A stretch of 62,883 nt of DNA, filler included, from Babesia bigemina (taxonomy: Eukaryota), in assembly GCF_000981445.1 (NCBI RefSeq). It is 8 parts of 8 records of this genome, joined end to end, with 100 filler letters (N's around TTAATTAATTAA, not from the genome) between each part and the next. Parts side by side here need not be neighbours in the genome. Positions count along the whole stretch, not along the records: positions 1 to 18,475 come from NW_012237204.1; 7 more parts are not named here. One strand, given 5' to 3'. The notes under the pieces were generated by a model, which was not told where the DNA came from, did not search any database, and saw nothing but the letters and a program-made list of their open reading frames with translations. Positions 1 through 60,452 of this stretch are shown in pieces; position 1 is the stretch's first letter, and every line of letters begins with the position of its first letter. A program made the translations under genes and the position numbers.

Positions 1-3000
1 TCCTTTGCCACTATTCCCTTCCCCCGTCATAAGTGGGGATAACCCGAATTTTGGGGGGCTGGGTAAACTGTCGCGCCTTTGAAGTCCTCAATAAGGTCTT
101 CATAATTTGGCTTCCGAAATTTTCCGTATCCACTAGGTTGTCTTGATTGGGTTTCTTATCTCCACGATGGTTATGGGTTCCTCCGCCGATCCGCCAGGAT
201 GATGTCTGGCCTGTTGTATTCCTTAGTCTTCTGAGTCTTGACCGTCTTGTCGTACGCGATCCATCCGTATTTTCCATGTACTTCACTCTCGATCTGTGGG
301 CGTCTATCTTCTCCTTGGGTAGTCCTATTTGCCTCCCGAGTACTGAGTGGACCCGTTTTGCTACCTCGTTGTGCCTCTTCGTATATTCTAGGTGTAGTAG
401 TTTCTGGCACTTCGTCGCGAGGTGATCCACGTTCTTGCCGTTGTTGCATCTTGTGCATTTCTTGGACGAAGACATCCATTGCAGATTCCTATCCTGGACT
501 TCCGCTACGTTCGCTTCTTCTTCCGGAGTGAGTATTCCACACGTCAGGTACAAGGACGACGCCTCAATGTCCAGCTTGGGGTCCTCACGCTTGGCATACA
601 GAACCTTATGAGTTGATTTTACGTGCATTCTGTTGTACAGCCATTTGTTTTGGGCCACCCTGAGGTCCCTGAGGCTCTTGTCCGTAGTGTCCTCCATTCC
701 GAATTCCATTCCATATCTTCCTTCCAGGTGCATCTTGATGTGAGATATGTGCGCGTATGTGTCGCGAAAATGCTGCATGATCGCAGCTCTCCTGGTTGAC
801 GTCACCTCGTCTGCTGAAAGCGTCAACCACAGTCGTAGCAGCATGGCTTCCGCTCTAAATACCATGCTGTGGAGCCCTCTCCCCATCTCTTTCCGGGGGA
901 GGTAGAGCCTCTGTGTGTTCGCCCACTTCTTGTGTCCGTGCTTCGCGTTAATTATTCTCCGTACTGCCAGGTCGATCTTGTCGAAATGCGTGATGTCCAT
1001 GGGGATCACGCCGATGTAGTAGTTGATGACGCTGAGGGCGTACTGGTTGATGGCCATCGAGAGGTTTTTCCCCGACAGCTTTGACGCAGCCAGTAGCTCC
1101 GTTCTCCTGCATATCTCCTGTAGTATTATGTCGAACATTCCGTCGCTTGTCAGTGAGTTTGAAGTCTCTGTGACTCCCAAGTACTTGTACGTTTCCGGGC
1201 CTTCCATCTGCTTGGCGATGCTGGCGCACGCCTCCGTGTTGGTTGCCGACTTGTCGCGGTTGATCCTGAGTCCTATGTCGTTGAAGAACTTCTCCACTTC
1301 TCGGCCCATTCCTCTCATCGTACTTTCCTCGTGGGCGAAGAACTTGAGGTCGTCAATATAGAGAAAGTGGTTTGTGGCGAATATCCTGCCGCCGGTCACG
1401 CTTAACTCCACCTTGGGGAAGATGCGAGTCAGGTGCCTGCTCAGCGGGTCCAAGCACAGCACGAAGAGAAGGGGCGATAGGCTGTCGCCTTGGAGAATGC
1501 CCCTCTCCACTTTCTTGTGCATGATTGTGTTCTTGTTCCACCGTATCTCTATATTCCACCTCTTGATCGTCTGCTTGATGAAGTTTGATAACCACCCTGG
1601 TAGGTTAAGGTTGTCGATAACCCTTGCCAGGTACGCGTGGTCGATTGAGTCGTACGCCTTCATGACGTCGACCCACGTTGCAAGTAACTTCCCCTTGTGC
1701 TTCTCGTTGAGCGCGATGTTCGCTAACGCGTGCTCCTTTGCACCCTGTACGTTGCTCCTCGTGCCCATCTGGTTCTCGGACCGTAGTCCCCTGCCATCGA
1801 CTTCTCGCTTAAGCGTCTCCGTTGCACAGCGGGTAGTTAGCTTGTATAGGTTGGACATGCATGTGATAGGCCTGTACTGTGCGGCGGACTTTGGTTTCTT
1901 GTTCTTCGGTAGTAGGTACGTGATCCCACAGTAGAACCAGTCGTCCTGCACTTTGCCTTGCTGGCATGCCTCCTCTACTAGCCTGTAAATGACTCTGTGA
2001 AGGGACGTGAGCCATTTAATGTAGTAGTTGTAGATCCCATCCGCACCGGGCGACTTCCAGTCTCGCAATTTCTTGACGATCGTGACGAATTCCTCGTATG
2101 TGGGAAAGCCTGCCTTGTTCTCTGCCGGTGGTCTTTCGACCAGATATCCTTCACCGTTGTGCGGTGCGTTTGGCTTCACCCACATTTGCGCCCAGTACTC
2201 TATCATCATCCCCTCGTTTATCGCCGACTCGTCCGCGTCCTGCTTGTTCTCCAGTGTCCTGTAGAAGTGTCCCGTGTAGAGCTCGAACATGCGGTTGTCG
2301 TTGTACAACTCCTTCTTGAACTTGGCGTTCTTGAGTTTGTCCTGCTCCTTTTGGAGCTCCTCTTGAGTCCTGCTGATCACGTATGACAGTTCCTGCGGCT
2401 TGTCCGCGATCATGTTGTACTTGTCCATTTGGCGATAAACGCGTTTCCTATCCTCCTTCTCCAGGGGGACCTTCTGCTTGTATTTCAGAAGTAATGCTCC
2501 TATCTCCTCCAGCTCCTTGATCCTCCTCTCAGCTGCCTCCTTCTTTCCCGAGGACGACGATGGTTTTGCGCTGTACTTGTCGTAGCAGTCCTGTGCCGTC
2601 TGATACAAGACGGCTAGCATCCCCATGTCAGTGACTGGGTTGTGCTTCACGTAGTTGTGGACCACTAGATCCAGCGACCTTATCGCCGTGAAGTCGAGGG
2701 AGTCCATGGTGTGTCTTTTGTTCTTTACTGTCCTAATCACTCCAGGCTCCCTCAACCTCTGTGCCATGATCCGGTCGAAATCCTCCTGCAGGGCGTTGTA
2801 TGAGTCGACGTCGTGCAGCGATGCTATTTCTCCAACGTCCGTCGGTTGGCTCCGCGCTGCTTTGGCGACTACCTGTCTTGCCATCTGCTCCACCTCCTTG
2901 TGGGTCTTGTGGAATTCGAAATGCTCGTTGGCATATTCCGCGAGGACTTTCCATCCTCCTCGTGGCATCCTCTGATACTTCGTCACTACTGCCTTGTAGA

Positions 3001-3990
3001 CGTCCGGTACCCAATGACACCATGGTCCATCGATCTGACGCATGACACAGTGCAGGAACTGTAACTTGGCATTCAGCCTAGCGTAGTTCGGCGGCATTTG
3101 TGGCGTGTTCCCGGCCCGTTCAGCCTGCGGGGCGTGCCCTTCGGGTGCCCTCGGCAACGCAGCCGTCTCAGTGAGCGCCACCTCACTGGCGGTGCCCGGT
3201 GCTATACTGTTGTTTGATTCTCTCACAGGCCCGACTTGCTCAGGTTCCTCTTCGTCCACGTCCATAAAGTCATCCGACGATATGGAATACACGGTCGGAG
3301 AGCGGCAGCCACCGTTTCCGACAACCTCCCCTGCCGGTGGCTGCAGGGTAGACAGTGTCTGCACACACACGGGTGCGCGTTCCGAGGAACTCGGCCCGGC
3401 GTTGCAAACCACGACAGGCGGCGTTTGAGCCGTGTTTCCTGTCTTTTTGGCCTTCCGGTTGTTACCCTTTTGGCCCTGGGGACCGCCGTTCCGCGCTTTG
3501 TTTCCAGCGCCCTTCACAGCCGGAGTGGTTCCGGGCTGGTGTCGTTTCCGGCTTGCCTGCGGGATTGGCCGGCTTTCGCCGCCACGGCCGGCCCCCTTCG
3601 AATTTGTGGGTTTACCTTTAGGGCCCTGAACACCGCTTTGTACCGGTTTTCTGGATTCATGCCGCCTTTCGGGTTGCCGACACTCTCGGCGCCCCACGGT
3701 GGCAAGCGGAGCATCGATGTCCATCCCATCGGGGACGTCCACGTCAATAACCATGAGGTCTCCGTCCTCATCGATTTGACTGCTCAGCTGCACTTCTTGT
3801 GAGCTCTCCATTGGTACCTTGTTCGTCTATCCAGCGCGCCTGTGTGGCCGCCTTTCGCCTCGCGATGTTGCCGCTTTAATTCCGCACTTTTGGCCTTCAA
3901 TACACCCCCCAGTGACATCGGAAAAATTTCCTTTCTGTGATAAACCCGAGAAAACACGTTTCTCAAAGTTTCCCCCAAAATCACAGAAGA
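1..3990 (-). mobile_element. Non-LTR retrotransposon, RLE-type (R2 group, R4/Dong-like), copy 1; 5' end present, 3' end runs off the window
   Basis: Single long ORF with RT, CCHC and RLE motifs. About 180-nt 5' UTR ending where antigen-gene homology begins (~3990). Near-identical to 20380-22246. Confidence 0.92.
11..3811 (-). CDS. Retrotransposon polyprotein: Myb-like, reverse transcriptase, zinc knuckle, restriction-like endonuclease (C-terminus frameshifted near the contig end)
   Basis: Motifs KSPGADGI, YRPITC, DVMKAYDSIDH, GILQGDSLSPLLF, YIDDLK, YKYLG, RLYLPRKEMGRGL, CTRC-x7-H-x4-C and RHN. One A is missing at ~295 relative to copy 2; the RPDIILAD motif continues in ORF 171..479. Joined with copy 2 the consensus is ~1347 aa. 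Confidence 0.93.
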   Translation of the reverse strand: MESSQEVQLSSQIDEDGDLMVIDVDVPDGMDIDAPLATVGRRECRQPERRHESRKPVQSGVQGPKGKPTNSKGAGRGGESRPIPQASRKRHQPGTTPAVKGAGNKARNGGPQGQKGNNRKAKKTGNTAQTPPVVVCNAGPSSSERAPVCVQTLSTLQPPAGEVVGNGGCRSPTVYSISSDDFMDVDEEEPEQVGPVRESNNSIAPGTASEVALTETAALPRAPEGHAPQAERAGNTPQMPPNYARLNAKLQFLHCVMRQIDGPWCHWVPDVYKAVVTKYQRMPRGGWKVLAEYANEHFEFHKTHKEVEQMARQVVAKAARSQPTDVGEIASLHDVDSYNALQEDFDRIMAQRLREPGVIRTVKNKRHTMDSLDFTAIRSLDLVVHNYVKHNPVTDMGMLAVLYQTAQDCYDKYSAKPSSSSGKKEAAERRIKELEEIGALLLKYKQKVPLEKEDRKRVYRQMDKYNMIADKPQELSYVISRTQEELQKEQDKLKNAKFKKELYNDNRMFELYTGHFYRTLENKQDADESAINEGMMIEYWAQMWVKPNAPHNGEGYLVERPPAENKAGFPTYEEFVTIVKKLRDWKSPGADGIYNYYIKWLTSLHRVIYRLVEEACQQGKVQDDWFYCGITYLLPKNKKPKSAAQYRPITCMSNLYKLTTRCATETLKREVDGRGLRSENQMGTRSNVQGAKEHALANIALNEKHKGKLLATWVDVMKAYDSIDHAYLARVIDNLNLPGWLSNFIKQTIKRWNIEIRWNKNTIMHKKVERGILQGDSLSPLLFVLCLDPLSRHLTRIFPKVELSVTGGRIFATNHFLYIDDLKFFAHEESTMRGMGREVEKFFNDIGLRINRDKSATNTEACASIAKQMEGPETYKYLGVTETSNSLTSDGMFDIILQEICRRTELLAASKLSGKNLSMAINQYALSVINYYIGVIPMDITHFDKIDLAVRRIINAKHGHKKWANTQRLYLPRKEMGRGLHSMVFRAEAMLLRLWLTLSADEVTSTRRAAIMQHFRDTYAHISHIKMHLEGRYGMEFGMEDTTDKSLRDLRVAQNKWLYNRMHVKSTHKVLYAKREDPKLDIEASSLYLTCGILTPEEEANVAEVQDRNLQWMSSSKKCTRCNNGKNVDHLATKCQKLLHLEYTKRHNEVAKRVHSVLGRQIGLPKEKIDAHRSRVKYMENTDGSRTTRRSRLRRLRNTTGQTSSWRIGGGTHNHRGDKKPNQDNLVDTENFGSQIMKTLLRTSKARQFTQPPKIRVIPTYDGGRE

Positions 3991-3991
3991 T

Positions 3992-6900
3992 TCCAACTCC
4001 CTTACTGACGATGCTACTAAGAAAGCTTTGGAGGACATTGACTCCAAGCTCATTAGCCTTGGTCACCTTGCTGGTCAACTTGGAGGATTTGTTGGTGAGA
4101 GTGAGAGTGTTAAGAAAGCCGTTATATATGCTATTATCGCTGTTTTTAACAATAATCCGCACCTTAAAAATGACTTAAAACATCTTTACTCTTCTCATGT
4201 TACTAACCTTTCTGAGTCTGTCAAGTCTGCTGGCAAGGCTGGTGACACCGGTGAAATTGAGAAGCTTCATGTTGAAGTGTCTAAAAAAATTACTGAAATT
4301 GACGCGGAAATTAAAGATCTTGAAAAGCCTAATAACCTCTATAATAATCTTCCTTCTTCCCCCTCTCTCTCTGCTGAGTCAGACAAATTGCAGTCCAAGT
4401 TGGAGGCTTTGAGGAAAGTGGAGAAGCTTTGTGGATTTTTGACTAATTCTAATAATCATCCAAATGATCCTAAAAATCTCTTAGATAATTTATGTGATGG
4501 TCTCGAAACCTTCCTCGGCTTCAATCCATCTTCCAAAGGCTACACTGGCCAGGGGATTGTGTACTCTGACCTGGACAGGCTGTGTGATGCAGTGATGGGA
4601 TTTTTGAGTGGAGTGCTTGGTGCGGTGAAAGATGATGAAGCAGTTAAAACGTACGATAAATACATGGATAGAAAGCTTAGTGAAGTACTAAAAGAGGTAA
4701 ATAAAAATATTGGCTCCGGGCGTGAAGGGCTTGTGGCGTCTGTCGACGCGGTGAAGGGGTGGTTGGAGGGGTATGATAACCAAATCAAATGGTTGACATA
4801 TAATGTTATGAATGATATGAACGAGTTAATTAACGATTTAGGAACTACATACTACGTTTCTATAAAAGCCGATCAAAATCTCGAAACTCAGTTGCACATC
4901 TGGAGGTCTGTTCTCCAGAAAATAAACGACCGATTTACGCAGATGGAACACAATGTTGAAAAGTTAGATCCGGCGTTACACGAACAGTTGAAAAAGGAAA
5001 TGATTATTTTCAAGAGGTCATTAGAGCTGTTACAGGAGTCGGCGAAAAATACGTCGTGTGAGGAGCAGATTAAGAAGGTGGATGAAACATTGTCGGAGCA
5101 GAAAAATTATATACAAAAACAGATCGAAGATGGGAGTTTAAAACTTAGACAAACTTTGGATGCCGACTTGTGGAAACTTCGCAATTTTGTCAAGTCTTTG
5201 GAAGAAACAAAAAACCAGAATATTAAGGATATACAGAATCGTTTGGATGATGCTAAAACCTTTCTGTCAAATAATTTCGATAGAGATTACAGAAATGTAA
5301 TTACTGGGCTTTTTTGTGACATACAACGACTTGTTGAGAATGTTCGAGGGTCTTTAATCGTAAAGAAAGCAGAACTGGCGGCGTTGGTAGAAGAGGCTCA
5401 GACACACTTTAAAGAAATTCAACGAGGGGTTGGTAAAGAAACTGGAGTACCAGGTAGTATATATGAACAATGGGGATTGCTTAAAGGAAGAATTTCGAGG
5501 ATTGTTGGAGACCTTCATGATAAGAAGGGAACTGCAACACCGAATTATTTAGGCAGGATATTGAATAACGTAACGAAGTATGTCAGTAATTTCAGAGAGG
5601 AATTAGGAGATGACGGGAACGGTTTTAACACTGTAGTAGAGCAGTGGATTGGAGAGATTTTGGGGCTTGACCCGGTGAGAGGGTGGGTTGAGGATTATGT
5701 TAATGCCAACAAGAGTGCTTTGCAACTACAATATACGACGGATACTCCGATCGGAAGTGGAATCTATGATACGTTAAACAAGAAGATTGCAACTAAGGTG
5801 AGGGAACTACTTCCTACAGGTGTTATTAGCAATGCCGTCGCGATGGCTAGCGGCTTTAACTCGAACGGAACCATAAATGATCATGTTAGAACCGTGCAGT
5901 TTGTTTGCATTGCATTTGCGAAACAGCTTGGCGACAAGATCAAGGGAACTGGTCTTGTGACACTTTCCTCCACTATAGTAGATGCGGTTAACTTGGCAGT
6001 AAAGCGTGCGGATCAGAATGTAAGCGGTACTCACATTACCCGCGCAATTCAATTTGTTCTTTACGAACTCGTTGGTTCAGCTCACGGAGCAATTGCCGAA
6101 CTTCAGCGATTCACATCAACGTCCGACATGGAAGACCTACTGAAGCAGGCTGTGAAAAACGTCGACATTATTGGCAGAGAATTCGACGACGCAGATACAG
6201 GAGAATACGGTAAAACAATCACGACATTGCTGAAAACTGCAGAGGCACAAATTGGCAAGCTGGGAAAAATATTAGGAAGCGCAGGAGTCACACTTAAAGA
6301 CCGCGTCGATAATATTCAGTGTGAGATCATTGAAAATCTTCATGGCATTTGCAAGAATGATGACGAAGGTGAAATCAATAAAAAGGGTAAAACGGCGTTC
6401 GATAATATCGAGGCATTGAAAAGCAAGCTGGGTGTCGACATATATCTCATCGGGGCGGAGGTTCAGAACACTGGTGTATATCTACAGTATGCAATCGACG
6501 CCGTCAGCGACTCATTGGGTGCAGCTTATAAGACAGCCATGACATCCGTTTCAGAACACAGGAATGCGCTCATCGACGCAACTACCAACGCATTCGACGA
6601 ACTAACCTCTCAGGTTCAAGCCATGTCAACCAGGCAGAAGCTTGCGAACCTAGAAGCGCTCAGAACGCTGGTGAGTGGGCAACACGAAATCATACACGAT
6701 GTCATTAAATATAATAGAAACAACGGCGTTAAGGGTCTATTAAAGTGGCTGTTTAAAGGCAAAGGAAATGAACTCGGTAAACTTAACGTTGATATAAGTC
6801 CAACTATCACACCGCAAGAACATTCAAACAAGTTCAAAAAATTATCATCGAAATTCCAACAATATGCTGACGTAATTTTGTCGTACACCGAGGAACAAGT

Positions 6901-9334
6901 AAAGACGCCTGTGCCAAACAAGTTCCCAGAACACAATACCCAATCTGGTCAGGTTCGCAAAATTAGAACCGAATTTGACATATTACTCGATCACCTAAAA
7001 ATCAACGAAAATAAAAAATACAATCTTGATGATGAATTTGAAAAGAAATTAGCTGTACTGAAGAACAATGTAAATTCCCGAACTCCCGCTACCTCCGCCC
7101 TCGACCCCCAAGCGCTGCCGGACGCAGGACGGCCCGTGCTCAAGGCGCTGCGGGATGGGATGATGGGATTCGTGGAGGAGTTGGGGAAGGGGTATGTGAG
7201 TAGGTATGATGGAGGTGAAAGTATTAAAGAGTGGGTTAAAAGAGAAGGTGAAAAAGACGTTTTGACGCCTGAAGGAAAAAATGGCGCCAAGGTGTTTTTG
7301 ACGCTGCTGGAGATGGTGAATGAGGACCTCGGGCATTTGAAAAATGAATGTGAAAGAGATTGGGGAAAATTTAAAATATACGAACAGGATAACGAAAGCA
7401 CAAATCCACTCGGTTCGTTCCTTAAACGATGTGGGTTCAAAGTCGCTGAACGTGACACTTCCAAAGATGGCGAGTTGAGGTTACCATTAAGTGGATTCAG
7501 CGGTGACCATATTACCAAATTGGAGCTTTTCACGTCCATTCCTCACACTAATGCCAGCAAGTTCCTTGTAAATCTCGACAGCCTTATCACTCACCTCAAC
7601 CAGTATAACCAAGTCGGCCACCTTAGGCATGTCAAGTCGCCTAGGAACCCGTGCAGTATTTTCGAAATGCTCGTATGGTCATATGGGCTGCAGCACAACG
7701 GTGTCTATGATGAATTGGTGAAATATTGTCATAAGTACGATACATCATATGATAAGAAACCAGATGCAGAATTCAAGAAGCGGTTGACAGACACTGTGGA
7801 TTACAGCCTACGTGCTCTGAGCGATTATTCACGTAATATACTCACAACCATACTCGGTACTGGTGACGAATACACAACGTACGCCGTTGACTACTCCGAT
7901 AATTCCCTCAATCTGAAATATCCTGCATCAGGTGAGGACTGCCTACATACGCTGCTGGACATCCTCCGTAGACTCCTGCCCACATTGCGATTTCTGAATA
8001 ACCAATGCAAGCTCAAAACCAAAGACAACGGTTGGTACGAATGCGAATATGGTATGTACACCGCTCCAGCCAAATGGCCGTGTACCGCCCACTCAAGCGA
8101 CAAGGCAACGAGTCAACCAAACACGCAACCAAAGTGCCAACCAACGTGCAAAGTAAACAGCCAAGCAAATTGCCAACCAACTTCCCCTCTTCAGTCTTAC
8201 TTAAATGACTGTCTACCTGGTCACCTACCTCATCGATTGATTGATGTCGGCTGTAAGTCGGAATGTAAAACGTGCTCTCCAAGTACCAGCGGCATGCCGT
8301 GTGTGACTCCCCTTGGCTTCAAGGCGTTTTCATGTAGCACGCGCCGTGGTGAAGACATATGTGCTGTGTTAAGCAAATTCTTTAACGTTGCGAAGCTTTC
8401 GCCTTTATTCTGCCTGGCGCCCAAACCACCATCTACGCTGCCAGAGCACATGGAATTTGCATTAGCGTTAGTCAAGGATTGGGATTCCGATGCAACGCAC
8501 CCTCTTAAAAATAGTATTCATTCCACAATACGAGGCGCATCTATTGAACTATGTGGAAAGCCGGAAGTGCTGACCACTGCGCTAACAAATGCGTACGGTT
8601 CATATTATGGCAGCCATGACACCTGTGATGATCAGCACATTTCTAGTCTCACAAGGTGGGATGCGTGTCCTGCACAGAATAAACGTTGTGCTCCATACCT
8701 TCAATCCTTATGCTACGATTACTATAGCTATCTTGTCAAGAAGCACTGCAATCTATACTTGTCATGGGCTGTATACCTACCATGGGATTTCTGGACTCAA
8801 CTGAACAATATGTGCAACGCGTTCAGCAATATCTCATGTCAAGATTGGGGATGCAGAGAGTGTCTGCGTGCCGACAAATGTAAGCGTGGAGAGCATGGGC
8901 TCAGCGTGAAAAAGGATGACGAATCCGAAGAGCCAAATTGTCGATGCCCTTCGATTATCAGCTGCAAAAGCGTTTCACCTATGTTGTACTCTTATGGATT
9001 AACCTTTGGTCACCCTACCAAAATTCTTACCAACAAAAAATGTAACGACTTTTACAATCAGTTGCACAGTGTCTTAAATTCAAAATATTTTATTGACCTA
9101 CTGACAAAATGTGATGAATACCTGCGCGATATTAGATGGCCATTTATGCTCACCGTCCTGACCCTCTGGCTCCTCTCTTTCCTCTACCTCATCCACATCA
9201 TGGTCATCCGCCTAGATCTCCTCCATATCAAATCGCATTTGCATAGTCCATCATCGCATCGTATCGCTGCTCAATCCTTACTTGCTGCTGCACGTGTTAA
9301 CAAGCTTAACAGAGTGTTTTACCTGCAACCATAA
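3992..9334 (+). CDS. VESA/ves2-like variant antigen, class 1 tail; 5' end displaced by the retrotransposon
   Basis: GIVYSDLDRLCDAVMGFL motif, coiled-coil middle, Cys-rich domain, TM helix, tail LDLLHIKSHLHSPSSHRIAAQSLLAAARVNKLNRVFYLQP. The ORF track starts at TTG 4028. Confidence 0.88.
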   Translation, partial: SNSLTDDATKKALEDIDSKLISLGHLAGQLGGFVGESESVKKAVIYAIIAVFNNNPHLKNDLKHLYSSHVTNLSESVKSAGKAGDTGEIEKLHVEVSKKITEIDAEIKDLEKPNNLYNNLPSSPSLSAESDKLQSKLEALRKVEKLCGFLTNSNNHPNDPKNLLDNLCDGLETFLGFNPSSKGYTGQGIVYSDLDRLCDAVMGFLSGVLGAVKDDEAVKTYDKYMDRKLSEVLKEVNKNIGSGREGLVASVDAVKGWLEGYDNQIKWLTYNVMNDMNELINDLGTTYYVSIKADQNLETQLHIWRSVLQKINDRFTQMEHNVEKLDPALHEQLKKEMIIFKRSLELLQESAKNTSCEEQIKKVDETLSEQKNYIQKQIEDGSLKLRQTLDADLWKLRNFVKSLEETKNQNIKDIQNRLDDAKTFLSNNFDRDYRNVITGLFCDIQRLVENVRGSLIVKKAELAALVEEAQTHFKEIQRGVGKETGVPGSIYEQWGLLKGRISRIVGDLHDKKGTATPNYLGRILNNVTKYVSNFREELGDDGNGFNTVVEQWIGEILGLDPVRGWVEDYVNANKSALQLQYTTDTPIGSGIYDTLNKKIATKVRELLPTGVISNAVAMASGFNSNGTINDHVRTVQFVCIAFAKQLGDKIKGTGLVTLSSTIVDAVNLAVKRADQNVSGTHITRAIQFVLYELVGSAHGAIAELQRFTSTSDMEDLLKQAVKNVDIIGREFDDADTGEYGKTITTLLKTAEAQIGKLGKILGSAGVTLKDRVDNIQCEIIENLHGICKNDDEGEINKKGKTAFDNIEALKSKLGVDIYLIGAEVQNTGVYLQYAIDAVSDSLGAAYKTAMTSVSEHRNALIDATTNAFDELTSQVQAMSTRQKLANLEALRTLVSGQHEIIHDVIKYNRNNGVKGLLKWLFKGKGNELGKLNVDISPTITPQEHSNKFKKLSSKFQQYADVILSYTEEQVKTPVPNKFPEHNTQSGQVRKIRTEFDILLDHLKINENKKYNLDDEFEKKLAVLKNNVNSRTPATSALDPQALPDAGRPVLKALRDGMMGFVEELGKGYVSRYDGGESIKEWVKREGEKDVLTPEGKNGAKVFLTLLEMVNEDLGHLKNECERDWGKFKIYEQDNESTNPLGSFLKRCGFKVAERDTSKDGELRLPLSGFSGDHITKLELFTSIPHTNASKFLVNLDSLITHLNQYNQVGHLRHVKSPRNPCSIFEMLVWSYGLQHNGVYDELVKYCHKYDTSYDKKPDAEFKKRLTDTVDYSLRALSDYSRNILTTILGTGDEYTTYAVDYSDNSLNLKYPASGEDCLHTLLDILRRLLPTLRFLNNQCKLKTKDNGWYECEYGMYTAPAKWPCTAHSSDKATSQPNTQPKCQPTCKVNSQANCQPTSPLQSYLNDCLPGHLPHRLIDVGCKSECKTCSPSTSGMPCVTPLGFKAFSCSTRRGEDICAVLSKFFNVAKLSPLFCLAPKPPSTLPEHMEFALALVKDWDSDATHPLKNSIHSTIRGASIELCGKPEVLTTALTNAYGSYYGSHDTCDDQHISSLTRWDACPAQNKRCAPYLQSLCYDYYSYLVKKHCNLYLSWAVYLPWDFWTQLNNMCNAFSNISCQDWGCRECLRADKCKRGEHGLSVKKDDESEEPNCRCPSIISCKSVSPMLYSYGLTFGHPTKILTNKKCNDFYNQLHSVLNSKYFIDLLTKCDEYLRDIRWPFMLTVLTLWLLSFLYLIHIMVIRLDLLHIKSHLHSPSSHRIAAQSLLAAARVNKLNRVFYLQP

Positions 9335-18575: not shown

Positions 18576-20379
18576 AGCTGAATAAGATAAGATGAGTAGC
18601 AATAACAAGGCAAATTAGAATCAAGGCTTATCTAAGGCCAGAAACAGGAAGATGAGTAGCTGAATAAGATAAGATGAGTAGCTGAATAAGATAAGATGAG
18701 TAGCTGAATAAGATAAGATGAGTAGCTGAATAAGATAAGATGAGTAGCTGAATAAGATAAGATGAGTAGCTGAATAAGATAAGATGAGTAGCTGAATAAG
18801 ATAAGATGAGTAGCTGAATAAGATAAGATGAGTAGCTGAATAAGATAAGATGAGTAGCTGAATAAGATAAGATGAGTAGCTGAATAAGATAAGATGAGTA
18901 GCTGAATAAGATGAGTAGCAATAACAAGGCAAATTAGAATCAAGGCTTATCTAAGGCCAGAAACAGGAAGATGAGTAGCTGAATAAGATAAGATGAGTAG
19001 CTGAATAAGATAAGATGAGTAGCTGAATAAGATAAGATGAGTAGCTGAATAAGATAAGATGAGTAGCTGAATAAGATAAGATGAGTAGCTGAATAAGATA
19101 AGATGAGTAGCTGAATAAGATAAGATGAGTAGCTGAATAAGATAAGATGAGTAGCTGAATAAGATGAGTAGCAATAACAAGGCAAATTAGAATCAAGGCT
19201 TATCTAAGGCCAGAAACAGGAAGATGAGTAGCTGAATAAGATAAGATGAGTAGCTGAATAAGATAAGATGAGTAGCAATAACAAGGCAAATTAGAATCAA
19301 GGCTTATCTAAGGCCAGAAACAGGAAGATGAGTAGCTGAATAAGATAAGATGAGTAGCTGAATAAGATAAGATGAGTAGCTGAATAAGATAAGATGAGTA
19401 GCTGAATAAGATAAGATGAGTAGCTGAATAAGATAAGATGAGTAGCTGAATAAGATGAGTAGCAATAACAAGGCAAATTAGAATCAAGGCTTATCTAAGG
19501 CCAGAAACAGGAAGATGAGTAGCTGAATAAGATAAGATGAGTAGCTGAATAAGATAAGATGAGTAGCTGAATAAGATAAGATGAGTAGCTGAATAAGATA
19601 AGATGAGTAGCTGAATAAGATAAGATGAGTAGCTGAATAAGATAAGATGAGTAGCTGAATAAGATGAGTAGCAATAACAAGGCAAATTAGAATCAAGGCT
19701 TATCTAAGGCCAGAAACAGGAAGATGAGTAGCTGAATAAGATAAGATGAGTAGCTGAATAAGATAAGATGAGTAGCTGAATAAGATAAGATGAGTAGCTG
19801 AATAAGATAAGATGAGTAGCTGAATAAGATAAGATGAGTAGCTGAATAAGATAAGATGAGTAGCTGAATAAGATAAGATGAGTAGCTGAATAAGATAAGA
19901 TGAGTAGCTGAATAAGATAAGATGAGTAGCTGAATAAGATAAGATGAGTAGCTGAATAAGATAAGATGAGTAGCTGAATAAGATAAGATGAGTAGCTGAA
20001 TAAGATAAGATGAGTAGCTGAATAAGATAAGATGAGTAGCTGAATAAGATAAGATGAGTAGCTGAATAAGATAAGATGAGTAGCTGAATAAGATAAGATG
20101 AGTAGCAATAACAAGGCAAATTAGAATCAAGGCTTATCTAAGGCCAGAAACAGGAAGATGAGTAGCTGAATAAGATAAGATGAGTAGCTGAATAAGATAA
20201 GATGAGTAGCTGAATAAGATGAGTAGCAATAACAAGGCAAATTAGAATCAAGGCTTATCTAAGGCCAGAAACAGGAAGATGAGTAGCTGAATAAGATAAG
20301 ATGAGTAGCTGAATAAGATAAGATGAGTAGCTGAATAAGATAAGATGAGTAGCTGAATAAGATAAGATGAGTAGCTGAA
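18576..20379. repeat. Homogeneous higher-order array: 22-bp unit A (GATGAGTAGCTGAATAAGATAA)n alternating with a 60-bp unit B
   Basis: B units start at 18591, 18910, 19163, 19267, 19454, 19663, 20097 and 20218. No substitutions seen. Confidence 0.97.
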
Positions 20380-22246
20380 ATAGAGATACGGTGGAACAAG
20401 AACACAATCATGCACAAGAAAGTGGAGAGGGGCATTCTCCAAGGCGACAGCCTATCGCCCCTTTTCTTCGTGCTGTGCTTGGACCCGCTGAGCAGGCACC
20501 TGACTCGCATCTTCCCCAAGGTGGAGTTAAGCGTGACCGGCGGCAGGATATTCGCCACAAACCACTTTCTCTATATTGACGACCTCAAGTTCTTCGCCCA
20601 CGAGGAAAGTACGATGAGAGGAATGGGCCGAGAAGTGGAGAAGTTCTTCAACGACATAGGACTCAGGATCAACCGCGACAAGTCGGCAACCAACACGGAG
20701 GCGTGCGCCAGCATCGCCAAGCAGATGGAAGGCCCGGAAACGTACAAGTACTTGGGAGTCACAGAGACTTCAAACTCACTGACAAGCGACGGAATGTTCG
20801 ACATAATACTACAGGAGATATGCAGGAGAACGGAGCTACTGGCTGCGTCAAAGCTGTCGGGGAAAAACCTCTCGATGGCCATCAACCAGTACGCCCTCAG
20901 CGTCATCAACTACTACATCGGCGTGATCCCTATGGACATCACGCATGTCGACAAGATCGACCTGGCAGTACGGAGAATAATTAACGCGAAGCACGGACAC
21001 AAGAAGTGGGCGAACACACAGAGGCTCTACCTCCCCCGGAAAGAGATGGGGAGAGGGCTCCACAGCATGGTATTTAGAGCGGAAGCCATGCTGCTACGAC
21101 TGTGGTTGACGCTTTCAGCAGACGAGGTGACGTCAACCAGGAGAGCTGCGATCATGCAGCATTTTCGCGACACATACGCGCACATATCTCACATCAAGAT
21201 GCACCTGGAAGGAAGATATGGAATGGAATTCGGAATGGAGGACACTACGGACAAGAGCCTCAGGGACCTCAGGGTGGCCCAAAACAAATGGCTGTACAAC
21301 AGAATGCACGTAAAATCAACTCATAAGGTCCTGTATGCCAAGCGTGAGGACCCCAAGCTGGACATTGAGGCGTCGTCCTTGTACCTGACGTGTGGAATAC
21401 TCACTCCGGAAGAAGAAGCGAACGTAGCGGAAGTCCAGGATAGGAATCTGCAATGGATGTCTTCGTCCAAGAAATGCACAAGATGCAACAACGGCAAGAA
21501 CGTGGATCACCTCGCGACGAAGTGCCAGAAACTACTACACCTAGAATATACGAAGAGGCACAACGAGGTAGCAAAACGGGTCCACTCAGTACTCGGGAGG
21601 CAAATAGGACTACCCAAGGAGAAGATAGACGCCCACAAGATCGAGAGTGAAGTACATGGAAAATACGGATGGATCGCGTACGACAAGACGGTCAAGACTC
21701 AGAAGACTAAGGAATACAACAGGCCAGACATCATCCTGGCGGATCGGCGGAGGAACACCATAACCATCGTGGAGATAGGAATCACCAATCAAGACAACCT
21801 AGTGGATACGGAGAAGTTCAAGAAGCAGAAGTATGAAGACCTTATTGAGGACCTCAAGGCGCGACAGTTTAACCAGCACACCAAGATCAGGGTTATCCCC
21901 TACGTTATGACGTGGGAGGGAATAGTGACAAAGGAGCACAGCAAGTACAGACGGGACCTGGGCATATCGGATCGCATGGAAGCCCACATACAAAGGGTAG
22001 TGATCCAAGAAACACATAAAATAGTGATGAGGGATATGAAGCCGAAAGAAGACTACGATTCCGTAGAAGACCCTCAAGCCCAAACTGGATGGATGCCCGC
22101 ATGGATGGCACCAGTGACGTCCGGCAATGGACCGGCGTGGATCCCGCAACCGGTTTCAGCGTGAGGCGTTAGCCCCGCAAACACGAAAACCGGCCCTAGG
22201 CACGTAGCCACATAGCACACTATAAGATGAGATAACTTAATTTAAC
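20380..22246 (+). mobile_element. Same RLE-type non-LTR retrotransposon, copy 2; 5'-truncated inside RT, 3' end intact
   Basis: Position 20380 corresponds to 1552 of copy 1. The 82-nt 3' UTR ends ...TTAATTTAAC with no poly(A), then antigen-gene sequence ATGATGCTACTAGAAG begins at 22247. Confidence 0.93.
20410..22164 (+). CDS. C-terminal 584 aa of the retrotransposon protein (RT C-half, CCHC, RLE)
   Basis: QGDSLSP, YIDD, CTRC..H..C, RHN, and RPDIILAD..IVEIGIT..K..KY (PD-(D/E)xK type). Confidence 0.9.
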   Translation: MHKKVERGILQGDSLSPLFFVLCLDPLSRHLTRIFPKVELSVTGGRIFATNHFLYIDDLKFFAHEESTMRGMGREVEKFFNDIGLRINRDKSATNTEACASIAKQMEGPETYKYLGVTETSNSLTSDGMFDIILQEICRRTELLAASKLSGKNLSMAINQYALSVINYYIGVIPMDITHVDKIDLAVRRIINAKHGHKKWANTQRLYLPRKEMGRGLHSMVFRAEAMLLRLWLTLSADEVTSTRRAAIMQHFRDTYAHISHIKMHLEGRYGMEFGMEDTTDKSLRDLRVAQNKWLYNRMHVKSTHKVLYAKREDPKLDIEASSLYLTCGILTPEEEANVAEVQDRNLQWMSSSKKCTRCNNGKNVDHLATKCQKLLHLEYTKRHNEVAKRVHSVLGRQIGLPKEKIDAHKIESEVHGKYGWIAYDKTVKTQKTKEYNRPDIILADRRRNTITIVEIGITNQDNLVDTEKFKKQKYEDLIEDLKARQFNQHTKIRVIPYVMTWEGIVTKEHSKYRRDLGISDRMEAHIQRVVIQETHKIVMRDMKPKEDYDSVEDPQAQTGWMPAWMAPVTSGNGPAWIPQPVSA

Positions 22247-23937
22247 ATGATGCTACTAGAAGAGCCTTGCAGGACATTGACTCCAAGCTCATTAGCCTTG
22301 GTCACCTTGCTGGCCAGCTTGGAGGATTTGTTGGTCAAAGTGAGAGTGTTAAGAAAGCCGTTGTGAAAGCTATTAAAGCTTGTTTCGACACTAATCCACA
22401 CCTTAAAAAAGACCTAAATGATGTTTACTCTTCTTATGTTACTAAGCTTTCTGAGTCTGTCAAGTCTGATGGCCAGGCTGATGACAACCAGAAAATTAGT
22501 GAGCTTAGTGAAGCAGTTAAGAAAGAAATTACTCTAATTACTCAACGTATTAATAGCCTTAATAACCCTCTTAATCCCTCTCCTTCTTCCCCCTCTGCCT
22601 CTGCTGAGTCAGCCAAATTGCAGTCCAAGTTGGAGGCTTTGAAGAAAGTGGAGAAGCTTTGTGGATTTTATGAGAATTCTAATAATCAACAAAATGAGCC
22701 TAAAAATCTCTTAGATAATTTATGTGACGGTCTTCAGAAATTCCTCGGCTTCAACTCTGCTACCAAAGGCTACGATGGCAGTGGGATAGTGTACTCTGAC
22801 CTTGACAGGCTGTGTGACGCGGTGATGGGATTTTTGAGTGGCGTGCTTAAGGATGTCAGCGAGAAACAGCCTTACAAAGTAGGCAAAGATATACTTGAAA
22901 ACATTGTTACTGACTTTGAATCCAAATTATCCACCGGGCGTAAGGGTTTTGAGGTCATTGAGACGGTGGCGCAGAGGGTGCGGGAGTATAATGATACAGT
23001 AAGTGAAAGAAGCAGTGAGGTCAGAAAAAAGATAACAGATTTAGATGATGAAATGACAACAATACAAGATCAAATTAAGAAAACATATCCTACCAAAGAG
23101 GAAAAAGATGCTGAACCTCTTGCAGACAAAATTGAGAAATCTAAAATTGAAGTGACTGAGATGGTAGAAAAATGTAAAAAGCTTGCCAAAACATTTAAAG
23201 CAGACTTATTTAATCTGAAAGATAAAATCAAAGATTTAGGCCATGAAGCAAACGAACAAATTAATAAAGCCAGAGACAATGTGGAGCGTGAAGGTCAGCG
23301 TCTTGGCAGAGTGCAGAAGAATGAGAAAGAACAGTACGAGGAGATGGAGACGAAAATTACAAGTGTTCTGTTAGTCGTAAAAGATAAGTTGAATCAGGAG
23401 ATTAGGAGCCAGGTGAATGGACTTATCAGTCTACTAAATGAGAAGGTCAAAAACATTTTGAAGGAGTGTAGGCATATTTGTCGTACGCTTGAAAATTATC
23501 TTCTGGATCTGGATAAGTGGATGGAGACGGCCAAAACGTTCATTGATAATGTAATCGAAAAACAGGTGGGAGCAATAAAAAAAGAAGTTGATGAAGCCGC
23601 AAAAGATAGAAAGCCGAACCACAAGAAAAATCTGGACACATCAATCAGCGAACTGGAAGCTGGATTGAAGCAGAGAGTCACAGAGTTGGATACATGGAAT
23701 AAGGCTGCAGGGAGCGCTGTTAGCGCGGCGAAGGAGAAGTGTAAGACAATTGGTGATATGGTGGAGACTAAAAGTGCAGGTAGTGACAAAATTTATAAGT
23801 TAGCTGAGACAATGAAAGAGAAGGCTGAGAAGCTGAGAAAGGCGGCGGAGCATATTAAGGGCAATATTGGTACATGGGTTAAAGATGCTCTAACGCAGGT
23901 GAAAGAGATGGACGGGAAGCTGAAAGAGGATTTGTGG
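22247..23937 (+). CDS. VESA/ves2-like antigen, partial; 5' end displaced by the retrotransposon, 3' end cut by a gap
   Basis: DIDSKLISLGHLAGQLGGF and GIVYSDLDRLCD motifs. Confidence 0.85.
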
Positions 23938-46025: not shown

Positions 46026-46210
46026 CGAATAACCCTGCCATAATACCGCTATGACCTCTTTAAACCATCCTAATAACTTGTGCCTTGTCACCCTTCACTT
46101 CCCTCTTCCACCTCTGCCACTGCCATGTCCCATCATGTTCACCCTAACTCCAAATCTCTCGAATTACCTCGTCTTATTAACGCTATGACCTCTATAAACC
46201 TTAATAATAA

Positions 46211-47548
46211 CTTGTTGATGCCGACCATTCTCTCACTGATGATGCTACTAGAAGAGCCTTGAAGGACATTGACTCCAAGCTCATTAGCCTTGGTCACCTT
46301 GCTGGACAGCTTGGAGGATTTGTTGGTCAAAGTGAGAGTGTTAAGAAAGCCGTTGTGAATGCTATTAAAGCCTATTTTGACAATAATCCAAGCCTTAAAA
46401 ATGACCTAAAAGATGTTTACTCTTCTCATGTTACTAAGCTTTCTGTGTCTGACAAGTCTGCTGACCAGGCTGATGACACCGTGAAAATTAGTGAGCTTAG
46501 TCAGCTAGTTAGTAAAGAAATTGCTAAAATCAGTGCAGAAATTGAGCATCTTGAAAAGCATAATAACCTCTATAATCACTCTCCCCCTTCCCTATCGCCC
46601 TCTGCTGACTCAGCCAAATTGCAGTCCAAGTTGGAGGCTTTGAAGAAGGTGAAGGAGCTTTGTGGATTTTATGAGAATTCTAATAATCAACAAAATGAGC
46701 CTAAAAATCTCTTAGATAACCTTTGTGACGGCCTCGAAACCTTCCTCGGCTTCAATCCATCTTCCAAAGGCTACACTGGCCAGGGGATTGTGTACTCGGA
46801 CCTGGATAGGCTGTGTGACGGGGTGATGGGATTTTTGAGTGGTGTGCTTGGTGCGGTGAAAAACACTCAGACATACAATGTCGGTAAAAATACATTACAA
46901 AACTTGGTAAGTAATGAAATTAACAATCATCTTTGCTCAGGGCACGAGGGCTTTAAAAGGCTTTTCGAAAAGTTGCCCAAGGAAATCGAGAAGTATAACA
47001 GGGACGTGAAAAAACAGAATGATGATATCACAGCCAAGATAAACAATTTAGAGATGCAGTTAAATACCATGAATGATAAGGTAAGTAAAGTTTTAGAAAA
47101 TGATGCTGTTTCAGGTACAACCAAGAAATCCGTGCAGGCTGTGACGTACAGTGAGGAGCACGTGGAATACGCTGTGATAAATATTAGGCAGTATCTTCGT
47201 GACTGTCAATATAATGCCGATAGATTCAACGAAGCATTCGACCTAGAACAAAGATTAGACATGCAAACTGCTGTTAATGATCTTAACTCTAAGTTACGTA
47301 ATGATGTACTTGTAGCCACGAAGGCAGTCAAACATGAAACACAGCGACTTGAGCAGTTGGCGCAGAAGGAGTGGGATGACTATAAATACATGAAGAGAAC
47401 GGTGAGAGCAACGATGGAGAGTCTGAAATTATCAGTTAACGGTGAGGTAAAATACCAGGTAGATGAACTAGTTAAGAAATTGAAAGAGAAGGTTACGGAA
47501 ATGAAAAATAACCTTGAACCAATTAGAGACAATCTCGGGGAATACATA
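46211..47548 (+). CDS. 5' fragment of a VESA/ves2-like antigen; doubled leader, out-of-frame ATG; carries the empty retrotransposon target site
   Basis: Frame opens after TAA 46208 as LVDADHSLTDDATRRALKDIDSKLISLGHLAGQ. Confidence 0.85.
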
Positions 47549-58429: not shown

Positions 58430-60452
58430 GCGCTGCCGGCACGCCTGCGGAGCCGCCACGGCCAACTGCAGCTGCGGCTGTACGGCACGCCAGACGCCGC
58501 CAGTGTCGCGCTGGTGCCACATTGGTGTGGTTACGTGCCTGTGTTGCCTCCCTGCCCCAGCCCACATCCGCCCGTTGTGCCGGGCTCCGGTGCGTGAGGT
58601 CTGCGGGCGGGGTGCCCGGACTGGGGGCTTGGCAGTCGAGGCACCAGACGGATGGCAGCTAGGGCACGGCAGTGAAGCAGTGCTGGCGGATGACATATTG
58701 GACCAGGTTTGGCGCAGTGCTGCGTGTTGTAGGCCGTGTCTGTCTGCCTCGCTCCACGACCCCCGGCGCCGCGCAGCCGCCGTGTCAGCGGATACGGGGC
58801 GTAGCAGATACCACAACTCAATGCGCTACCGGCACCTAATAGCTATAAGACGTAGTATCGTACGCACTTTGATGTGGCTGTGATGGCCTGGCTCCCAACA
58901 CCCGTCACCCTGCCGCCACCGCCGCCACGCCTACACCGCTGCGGACGGGCTCTGAGGCAGGCGGGTCGTGGGCACTGGCGGTGGCACCAGGCGTCATGAG
59001 ACGATACTGTCATCGGAGCTGCCTGGCACCACACTTGCTGAAATAACACTTGCTGGCACTCGTCCAGCTGCTACCCGGGCATCCACTGCCGCCAACACGC
59101 CTGGGGAGGGTCTGTGGCGCCGGGTGGAGTCGCTGGGTGGAGTCGCTGGGTGTGACATCGCCAGACCGCGGCAGGCGCAGCGCAGCACACGATGTGACCT
59201 GGTGTCGCGGTATAGCTGCTCTATATGTACCATCCACCGACACGCATCCGGGCAGTCCGGGAGCGGCGCTGCCGGCACGCCTGCGGAGCCGCCACGGCCA
59301 ACTGCAGCTGCGGCTGTACGGCACGCCAGACGGCGCCAGTGTCGCGCTGGTGCCACATTGGTGTGGTTACGTGCCTGTGTTGCCTCCCTGCCCCAGCCCA
59401 CATCCGCCCGTTGTGCCGGGCTCCGGTGCGTGAGGCCTGCGGGCGGGGTGCCCGGACTGGGGGCGTGGCAGTCGAGGCACCGGAGGGATGGCAGCTAGGG
59501 CACGGCAGTGAAGCAGTGCTGGCAGATGACAGATTGGACCAGGTTTGGCGCAGTGCTGCGTGTTGTAGGCCTTGTCTAACTGCCTCGCTCCACGACCCCC
59601 GGCGCCGCGCAGCCGCCGTGTCAGCGGATACGGAGAGTAGCAGATACCACAACTCATTGCGCTGCCGGCACCAGGCAGGCACTGATGTAGTATGGTACGC
59701 ACTTCTATGTGGCCGTGATGGCCTGGCTCCCAACACCCGTCACCCTGCCGCCACCGTCGTTACGCCTACACCGCTGGGCAAACGGCCTCTGAGGCAGGCG
59801 GGTCGCGGGCACTGGCGGTGGCACCAGGCGTCATGAGACGACGATACGTGTGACCGAGGCTGCCTGGCACCACACTTGCTGAAATAACACTTGCTGGCAC
59901 TCGTCCAGCTGCTACCCGGGCATCCACTGCCGCCGGCACGCCTGCGGAACCGCCACGGCCAACTGCAGCTGCGGCTGTACGGCACGCCAGACGCCGCCAG
60001 TGTCGCGCTGGTGCCACATTGGTGTGGTTACGTGCCTGTGTTGCCTCCCTATCCTAGCCCACATCCGCCCGTTGTGCCGGGCTCCGGTGCGTGACGCCTG
60101 CGGGCGGGGTGCCCGGACTGGGGGCTTGGCAGTCGAGGCACCAGACGGATGGCAGCTAGGGCACGGCAGTGAAGCAGTGCTGGCGGATGACATATTGGAC
60201 CAGGTTTGGCGCAGTGCTGCGTGTTGTAGGCCGTGTCTGTCTGCCTCGCTCCACGACCCCCGGCGCCGCGCAGCCGCCGTGTCAGCGGATACGGGGCGTA
60301 GCAGATACCACAACTCAATGCGCTACCGGCACCTAATAGCTATAAGACGTAGTATCGTACGCACTTTGATGTGGCTGTGATGGCCTGGCTCCCAACACCC
60401 GTCACCCTGCCGCCACCGCCGCCACGCCTACACCGCTGCGGACGGGCTCTGA
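58430..60452. repeat. GC-rich long-period tandem repeat (units from ~58430, ~59266, ~59930)
   Basis: The block GCCGGCACGCCTGCGGA...GCCAACTGCAGCTGCGG recurs three times; periods ~835 and ~660 bp. Confidence 0.9.

What the first reader, a model, noticed from the sequence alone, without database searches (positions are those of the whole stretch)
3985..4030. Both retrotransposon copies hit the same site in the variant antigen family, in opposite orientations
Seen: the copy 1 5' end abuts TCCAACTCCCTTACTGACGATGCTACTAAG (~3992). The copy 2 3' end abuts ATGATGCTACTAGAAG (22247). An uninterrupted paralog reads CATTCTCTCACTG|ATGATGCTACTAGAAG (~46226-46254). The two junctions map within ~15-20 bp of each other in two different genes. 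Known: RLE elements are often site-specific for multicopy targets (rDNA, SL genes, microsatellites). Inference: this element targets a protein-coding antigen family and removes gene 5' ends, a target class I do not know of. It could also supply breaks for antigen recombination. Only two insertions are seen, each with only one junction visible.
Basis: partly seen in the sequence, partly recalled or inferred. Interest (0 to 1): 0.92.

Follow-up and report, generated by a model that had tools for sequence, protein, structure and literature searches.

The report
Retrotransposon crowding into Babesia antigen genes
A recently active jumping gene of a cattle blood parasite sits almost only beside or inside the parasite's variant surface-antigen genes, likely because it prefers them, but it lands at several places in them rather than at the single site first proposed.

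Summary
The junctions are real. Two near-identical copies of a 4.3-kb RLE-type non-LTR retrotransposon abut two Babesia bigemina ves1b genes in opposite orientations, about 10-20 bp apart at the 'TDDAT' codons. The 'uninterrupted' paralog is itself 5'-truncated 25 bp upstream. Of 17 models of this ves1b subtype, 15 lack the normal start, and most of these begin with a leader, so loss of 5' ends cannot be charged to these insertions. Published gene order shows a strong family-level link. In B. caballi, 89 of 103 element loci are next to a ves-like gene (background 10.7%). In B. bigemina, 10 of 10 chromosomal loci lie within three genes of one. A single site is not supported: fused gene models place other junctions at about residue 410-600 and about 1,300-1,400 of ves1ba, and Theileria equi carries relatives without ves genes. 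Best reading: a ves-preferring, loosely site-specific element with a local hot spot. Purifying selection alone is the main rival. The elements are in print, and trypanosome RHS genes are a precedent for a protein-coding target. I found no report of the ves link. No reads or whole genome were available.

The parts
1..3988 (-). Element copy 1: 5' UTR (about 177 nt), single ORF from ATG 3811; 3' end (about 310 nt) cut off by the contig start; indels near the contig end
   Evidence: (RVT_1 E 2e-30); first contig is 18,475 bp
3934..3988 (-). Predicted terminal hairpin at the element's 5' end; used to place the boundary
   Evidence: no Rfam match
3989..9334 (+). ves1b gene body (TDDAT subtype), starting at the copy 1 junction
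   Evidence: family label via P0172 = CDR96096, ves1b
18576..20379 (+). Near-perfect tandem array (22-, 17- and 60-bp units sharing a 12-mer) joined to copy 2's truncated 5' end through about 3 bp of microhomology
20380..22246 (+). Element copy 2: lacks the first ~2,440 nt; RT end, CCHC knuckle, RLE endonuclease, stop at 22164, 82-nt 3' UTR, no poly(A)
22247..23937 (+). ves1b gene body (TDDAT subtype), starting at the copy 2 junction and running into a gap
46049..46215 (+). Doubled leader after a 22-bp minisatellite; it replaces the canonical ves start in the paralog
46216..47548 (+). Element-free ves1b paralog of the same subtype; body begins 25 bp upstream of the site

Best explanation
This is a recently active single-ORF RLE non-LTR retrotransposon whose copies lie beside or inside ves antigen genes, likely because it prefers ves loci as a region and uses several sites, the TDDAT stretch being a likely local hot spot. 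Shown: the protein architecture, many identical or near-identical copies, a 5'-truncated copy, both junctions, and the gene-order association. Inferred from the family: insertion by target-primed reverse transcription, with the C-terminal endonuclease nicking DNA and the RT priming on the nick. Inferred here: recognition is loose (ves chromatin, break-prone leader/body boundaries, or a short motif read by the N-terminal helical domain), so either strand can prime. That would give opposite orientations, junctions some bases apart and no clean duplication. Purifying selection in a compact haploid genome likely sharpens the pattern.
For: Architecture: RT motifs, C-x2-C-x8-H-x4-C, RHN and PD..E in the intact 1,347-aa copy; model pLDDT 86, best PDB matches are R2 proteins (E 2e-30). 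Youth: 25 B. bigemina RT models, identical proteins at up to 3 accessions. B. caballi: 89 of 103 element loci adjacent to a ves-like model, 49 of 103 flanked on both sides, 100 of 103 within 5 tags; background for 4,865 other genes 10.7%, 3.3% and 30%, and 35% and 11% for the 1,475 genes already within 5 tags of a ves; 10,000 random draws gave at most 25. B. bigemina: 10 of 10 chromosomal loci within 3 accessions of a ves-labelled or ves-module gene, 6 of 10 adjacent or fused. Several sites: P0121 joins ves1ba at about residue 410-600, within 2-3 codons of where 5 to 6 truncated relatives join their leader; P0287 runs into an element fragment at about residue 1,300-1,400; P0048 joins a B. caballi ves near its start.
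Against: Gene order cannot separate targeting from survival. No DNA flank outside the window was seen, and the three other junctions come from predicted gene models that may hide splices. The hot spot rests on two copies. T. equi has at least 13 related models and no ves-like family. Three of 103 B. caballi loci lie 18-60 tags from any ves. No B. bigemina background was computed, and only the first 5 rows per accession prefix were seen. The N-terminal domain gave only weak fold matches (Z 4-5 to homeodomain and trihelix chains, best Z 7.3 to an unrelated enzyme).
Confidence: 0.5

Rival explanations
1. No targeting. The element inserts broadly, insertions in core genes are purged in haploid stages, and survivors pile up in redundant ves arrays. 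The two close junctions are chance, or the result of later recombination at the subtype's existing leader/body breakpoint.
For: Compact genome, 66% coding; haploid asexual stages; T. equi relatives without ves; some pair among about 24 copies would fall this close with probability 0.2-0.65; junctions at unrelated ves positions.
Against: Only 3 of 103 B. caballi loci lie away from ves although non-coding DNA exists elsewhere. Adjacency (86%) far exceeds that of other genes in ves neighbourhoods (35%) and of another multicopy family (7 of 58). For this pair the chance is about 0.001-0.004.
Confidence: 0.27
2. The two junctions are not independent. They are the two ends of one event that bridged two head-to-head ves1b genes, or the product of a rearrangement or misassembly of one locus.
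For: Copy 1 shows only a 5' junction and ends at a contig edge; copy 2 shows only a ves 3' junction; the contigs are separated by padded gaps; the copies are about 99.7% alike over the good-quality overlap.
Against: Copy 2 has its own 5' junction with microhomology to an array and two residue changes not seen in the other copies I read. All copies in this species are near-identical, so likeness does not pair these two.
Confidence: 0.12
3. Strict sequence-specific insertion at the TDDAT site of ves1b, in the manner of R2 in 28S rDNA.
For: Both window copies sit at this site in the same subtype; GATGCTACTA is exact only in the three subtype genes; 3 of the 6 adjacent or fused chromosomal neighbours are labelled ves1b.
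Against: Opposite orientations and a 10-20 bp offset; no N-terminal zinc finger found; other junctions elsewhere and neighbours of the ves1a module; many element-free copies of the site.
Confidence: 0.11

Closest known systems
LINE-like elements of Babesia bigemina, B. ovata, B. divergens and Theileria equi (PMC9141347); RT gene cluster 03 and repeat R=9 of B. caballi (PMC10463595)
   Same: Same family: window protein 97-100% identical to B. bigemina models and 53-59% to B. caballi. The papers give 0.97% of the B. bigemina genome and a 4,018-bp repeat with 313 appearances in B. caballi.
   Different: The first paper has no occurrence of ves1, VESA, insertion site or target site in its main text. 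The passages seen of the second do not link the RT cluster to ves loci.
R2 retrotransposons (28S rDNA)
   Same: Single ORF with RT, CCHC knuckle and C-terminal RLE; best structural matches.
   Different: No N-terminal zinc fingers found, no single target, orientation not fixed, no Rfam ribozyme match at the 5' end.
R4/Dong-type RLE elements, and RT elements annotated in microsporidia (Vairimorpha, Hamiltosporidium)
   Same: Nearest named non-piroplasm relatives, 40-47% identical; Babesia copies form one clade among them. The R4 label is recalled and comes from no call.
   Different: R4 and Dong target rDNA and TAA repeats. No RNA gene was found in 20 of 80 related metagenome loci scanned.
ingi/RIME and L1Tc insertions in trypanosome RHS genes (PMC7563717)
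   Same: A retrotransposon hot spot in the 5' coding part of a multicopy protein gene family of a protozoan parasite.
   Different: RHS are nuclear proteins with one defined site. Those elements use an APE-type endonuclease (recalled). Here the family is the variant surface antigen and several sites are used.

Membership tests
RLE-type non-LTR retrotransposon | Single long ORF with non-LTR RT domain | tested here: met
   RVT_1 E 2e-30; QGDSLSP and YIDD; 1,347-aa intact copies
RLE-type non-LTR retrotransposon | CCHC knuckle followed by C-terminal PD-(D/E)xK endonuclease | tested here: met
   Motifs at residues 1119, 1146 and 1202; fold closest to R2
RLE-type non-LTR retrotransposon | 5'-truncated copies with intact 3' ends | tested here: met
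   Copy 2 lacks about 2,440 nt; P0287 fragment
RLE-type non-LTR retrotransposon | Target-site duplication or defined deletion | tested here: inconclusive
   None at copy 2, whose 5' flank is an array; copy 1's 3' end is absent
R2-like strictly site-specific elements | One target position and one orientation | tested here: not met
   Opposite orientations, 10-20 bp offset; other positions in gene models
R2-like strictly site-specific elements | N-terminal C2H2 zinc fingers | tested here: not met
   Pattern search found none in P0002; Pfam gave only RVT_1
R2-like strictly site-specific elements | Myb-type DNA-binding domain | tested here: inconclusive
   Confident small helical domain; weak matches to helix-turn-helix DNA binders, Z 4-5; none at E<=0.001
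R2-like strictly site-specific elements | 5' HDV-like ribozyme | tested here: inconclusive
   No Rfam match; terminal hairpin only
R4/Dong clade | RT phylogeny grouping with R4, Dong, Rex6, EhLINE | not testable with these tools
   No reference sequence of these was returned by any search; the trees hold none
RHS-type hot spot in a protein-coding family | Many independent insertions at one homologous position | tested here: inconclusive
   Two junctions only at base level; no genome or reads available

The most novel reading that the evidence does not exclude
The element actively homes to variant-antigen genes and nicks them at recurrent points. Its cuts and its RT then made the leader-capped, 5'-truncated ves subfamilies and feed ves rearrangement: a selfish RLE element using the antigen archive as its safe haven and acting as an engine of its diversification. 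The match between element junctions and leader/body breakpoints in two different ves subfamilies (window ves1b; P0121 ves1ba) is what this would predict.
Probability: 0.2. Interest if true: 0.85.

Novelty: new variant of a known kind. Interest (0 to 1): 0.55.

Why it matters
Most apicomplexans have few or no transposons, and what starts ves rearrangement is open. An active RT-endonuclease element almost confined to ves arrays in two Babesia species gives a concrete candidate source of breaks and of reverse transcriptase; a retro-origin has been proposed for B. bovis ves1-alpha. It also makes targeting versus selection directly testable from existing genomes. If only selection is at work, the result is a modest genome-ecology note.

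Tried and rejected
No whole genome is held for this window and no sequencing runs were obtained, so far flanks and other base-level junctions stay unseen. An exact 3'-UTR pattern found 0 matches in metagenome contigs. The 80 related metagenome loci are 24-45% identical to the query, mostly on element-sized contigs; 20 of 80 scanned had no Rfam hit, nor did the window. A search for longer fused proteins gave 6 distant hits, none from Babesia. The Atlas search was uninformative. I first read the window's genes as ves1a and corrected this to ves1b. I dropped CDR94843 as a neighbour because it lies across a chromosome boundary. I did not count the 14 RT models on unplaced contigs, because accession order crosses contigs (CDR71790 and CDR71791 differ in contig length). 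Monophyly of the piroplasm elements was neither shown nor rejected (support 30); the careful tree did not finish. A retrocopy origin for the truncated ves genes was considered; no poly(A) follows the one 3' end I read, so it is not supported. A recalled link between Giardia GilD and vsp genes was not found in print (0 papers) and is not used. Three look-ups of earlier findings returned nothing.

Full report
What the window is. It is a scaffold of eight contigs joined by padded gaps, filled with long ORFs of one antigen family and minisatellites. The RT protein is 97-100% identical to proteins named for Babesia bigemina, and the antigen ORFs match B. bigemina and B. ovata models. One member of the same subtype, P0172 = CDR96096, is labelled ves1b in a published table and shares the C-terminus of window genes, so I call these genes ves1b.

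The observation. Copy 1 runs from the contig start to about 3988 on the minus strand; copy 2 spans 20380-22246 on the plus strand; no other piece of the element is in the window. Both abut ves1b bodies at the TDDAT codons. The copy 2 junction is 2 bp before GATGCTACTA. The copy 1 junction is 12-22 bp before it, most likely 19-21. The two flanks are 82.5% alike, so they are two genes. For this pair the closeness is unlikely by chance (about 0.001-0.004), though not for some pair among about 24 copies (0.2-0.65, a rough estimate). Copy 2's other junction is visible: a 5' truncation joined by about 3 bp of microhomology to a tandem array found nowhere else in the window, with no duplication.

The 'empty' paralog. 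Its canonical start is replaced by a minisatellite and a doubled leader, and the body begins 25 bp upstream of the site. Among the 120 of 176 listed ves hits, 17 carry this subtype's motif, 15 of them lack the canonical IDW start, and most of those begin with the leader. The missing 5' ends are thus a property of the subtype, and the element's junctions fall at or just inside that existing boundary.

The element. Intact copies encode 1,347 aa with RT, CCHC knuckle and RLE motifs and no N-terminal zinc finger by pattern search. The model (pLDDT 86) matches R2 proteins best. A small N-terminal helical domain has only weak fold matches. B. bigemina has 25 RT models, some identical at three accessions, which indicates recent activity. 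Babesia copies form one clade among elements annotated in microsporidia; the position of T. equi is unresolved.

Genome-wide test by gene order. The 141 merge into 103 loci: 89 adjacent to a ves-like model, 49 flanked on both sides, 100 within 5 tags, and 3 far away. Backgrounds are 10.7%, 3.3% and 30% over 4,865 other genes (about 5,875 tags assumed), and 35% and 11% for genes already near ves; another multicopy family scores 7 of 58 adjacent. For B. bigemina, supplement 2 of PMC5660447 gave 11 chromosomal RT models in 10 loci. All 10 lie within three accessions of a ves-labelled or ves-module gene, and 6 are adjacent or fused: 3 ves1b, 1 ves1ba fusion and 2 unlabelled members of the ves1a module. 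Only five rows per accession prefix were shown, no background was computed, and the 14 unplaced models were not counted (seen, not used).

One site or many. P0121 joins the element's end to a ves1ba body at about residue 410-600 of full-length relatives, again within a few codons of where truncated relatives join a leader. P0287 (unnamed, 76% identical to the element over 63 aa) runs from ves into a 5'-truncated element at about residue 1,300-1,400. P0131 continues into a low-complexity tail unlike the TDDAT region. P0048 joins a B. caballi ves near its start. These are predicted models and may hide splices, but together with the opposite orientations they argue against one fixed site.

Mechanism. 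The likely mechanism is target-primed reverse transcription (established for the family, not tested here) with loose, regional preference for ves loci, sharpened by selection (0.5). Rivals are selection alone (0.27), one event or misassembly (0.12) and strict specificity (0.11). Against an essential role in antigenic variation: B. bovis shows segmental conversion of ves genes with no TE detected, and T. equi has the element without a ves-like family.

Literature seen. PMC9141347: passages and part 1 of 5 of the supplement. PMC10463595: passages and supplement parts 1-5 of 18 plus search rows. PMC4066756: passages and part 1 of section 22; its supplements were not opened and may bear on element positions. 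PMC5660447: a word search of the main text with no hits for reverse, transpos or retro, one supplement part and search rows. PMC7563717, PMC3505731, PMC7485966, PMC3774820: passages. Ten searches showed no paper linking these elements to ves loci; the library lacks most subscription papers and Repbase.

Verdict. The feature is real, the element family is known, the ves association appears unreported and is strong, and the single-site claim is not supported. Interest 0.55; new variant of a known kind.

Noticed in passing
window 18576-20379: Near-perfect complex array (55 x 22 bp, 8 x 60 bp, 5 x 17 bp units) at copy 2's 5' junction. It shares the 10-mer ATAAGATGAG with the element's 3' UTR (7 of 728 control windows hold any array 10-mer). 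It could be filler made by a slipping RT, or an unrelated minisatellite.
   Followed up: partly
window 11686, 31438, 38181, 44478, 46049, 46183, 50729, 58249, 60845: The element-free ves1b starts seen all follow a 22-bp minisatellite and a shared leader joined to the gene body at three different points; none has the canonical MAPKKLTDCPENL start found in chromosomal models.
   Followed up: partly
window 1-3811 (protein tree): Piroplasm RLE elements nest among elements annotated in microsporidia (40-47% identity), a lead for horizontal transfer; direction and T. equi placement unresolved.
   Followed up: partly
P0121 relatives: A second truncated subfamily (ves1ba, leader ending LHPSFQ before WI) breaks at the same place where the element joins in BBBOND_0308820.
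   Followed up: partly
accessions CDR94844, CDR96093: Two full-length copies appear to be the first or nearly first genes of chromosome scaffolds (inferred), suggesting subtelomeric positions.
   Followed up: no
window 58430-60452: A GC-rich repeat of about 520-680 bp in three copies at 92-99% identity; not examined.
   Followed up: no
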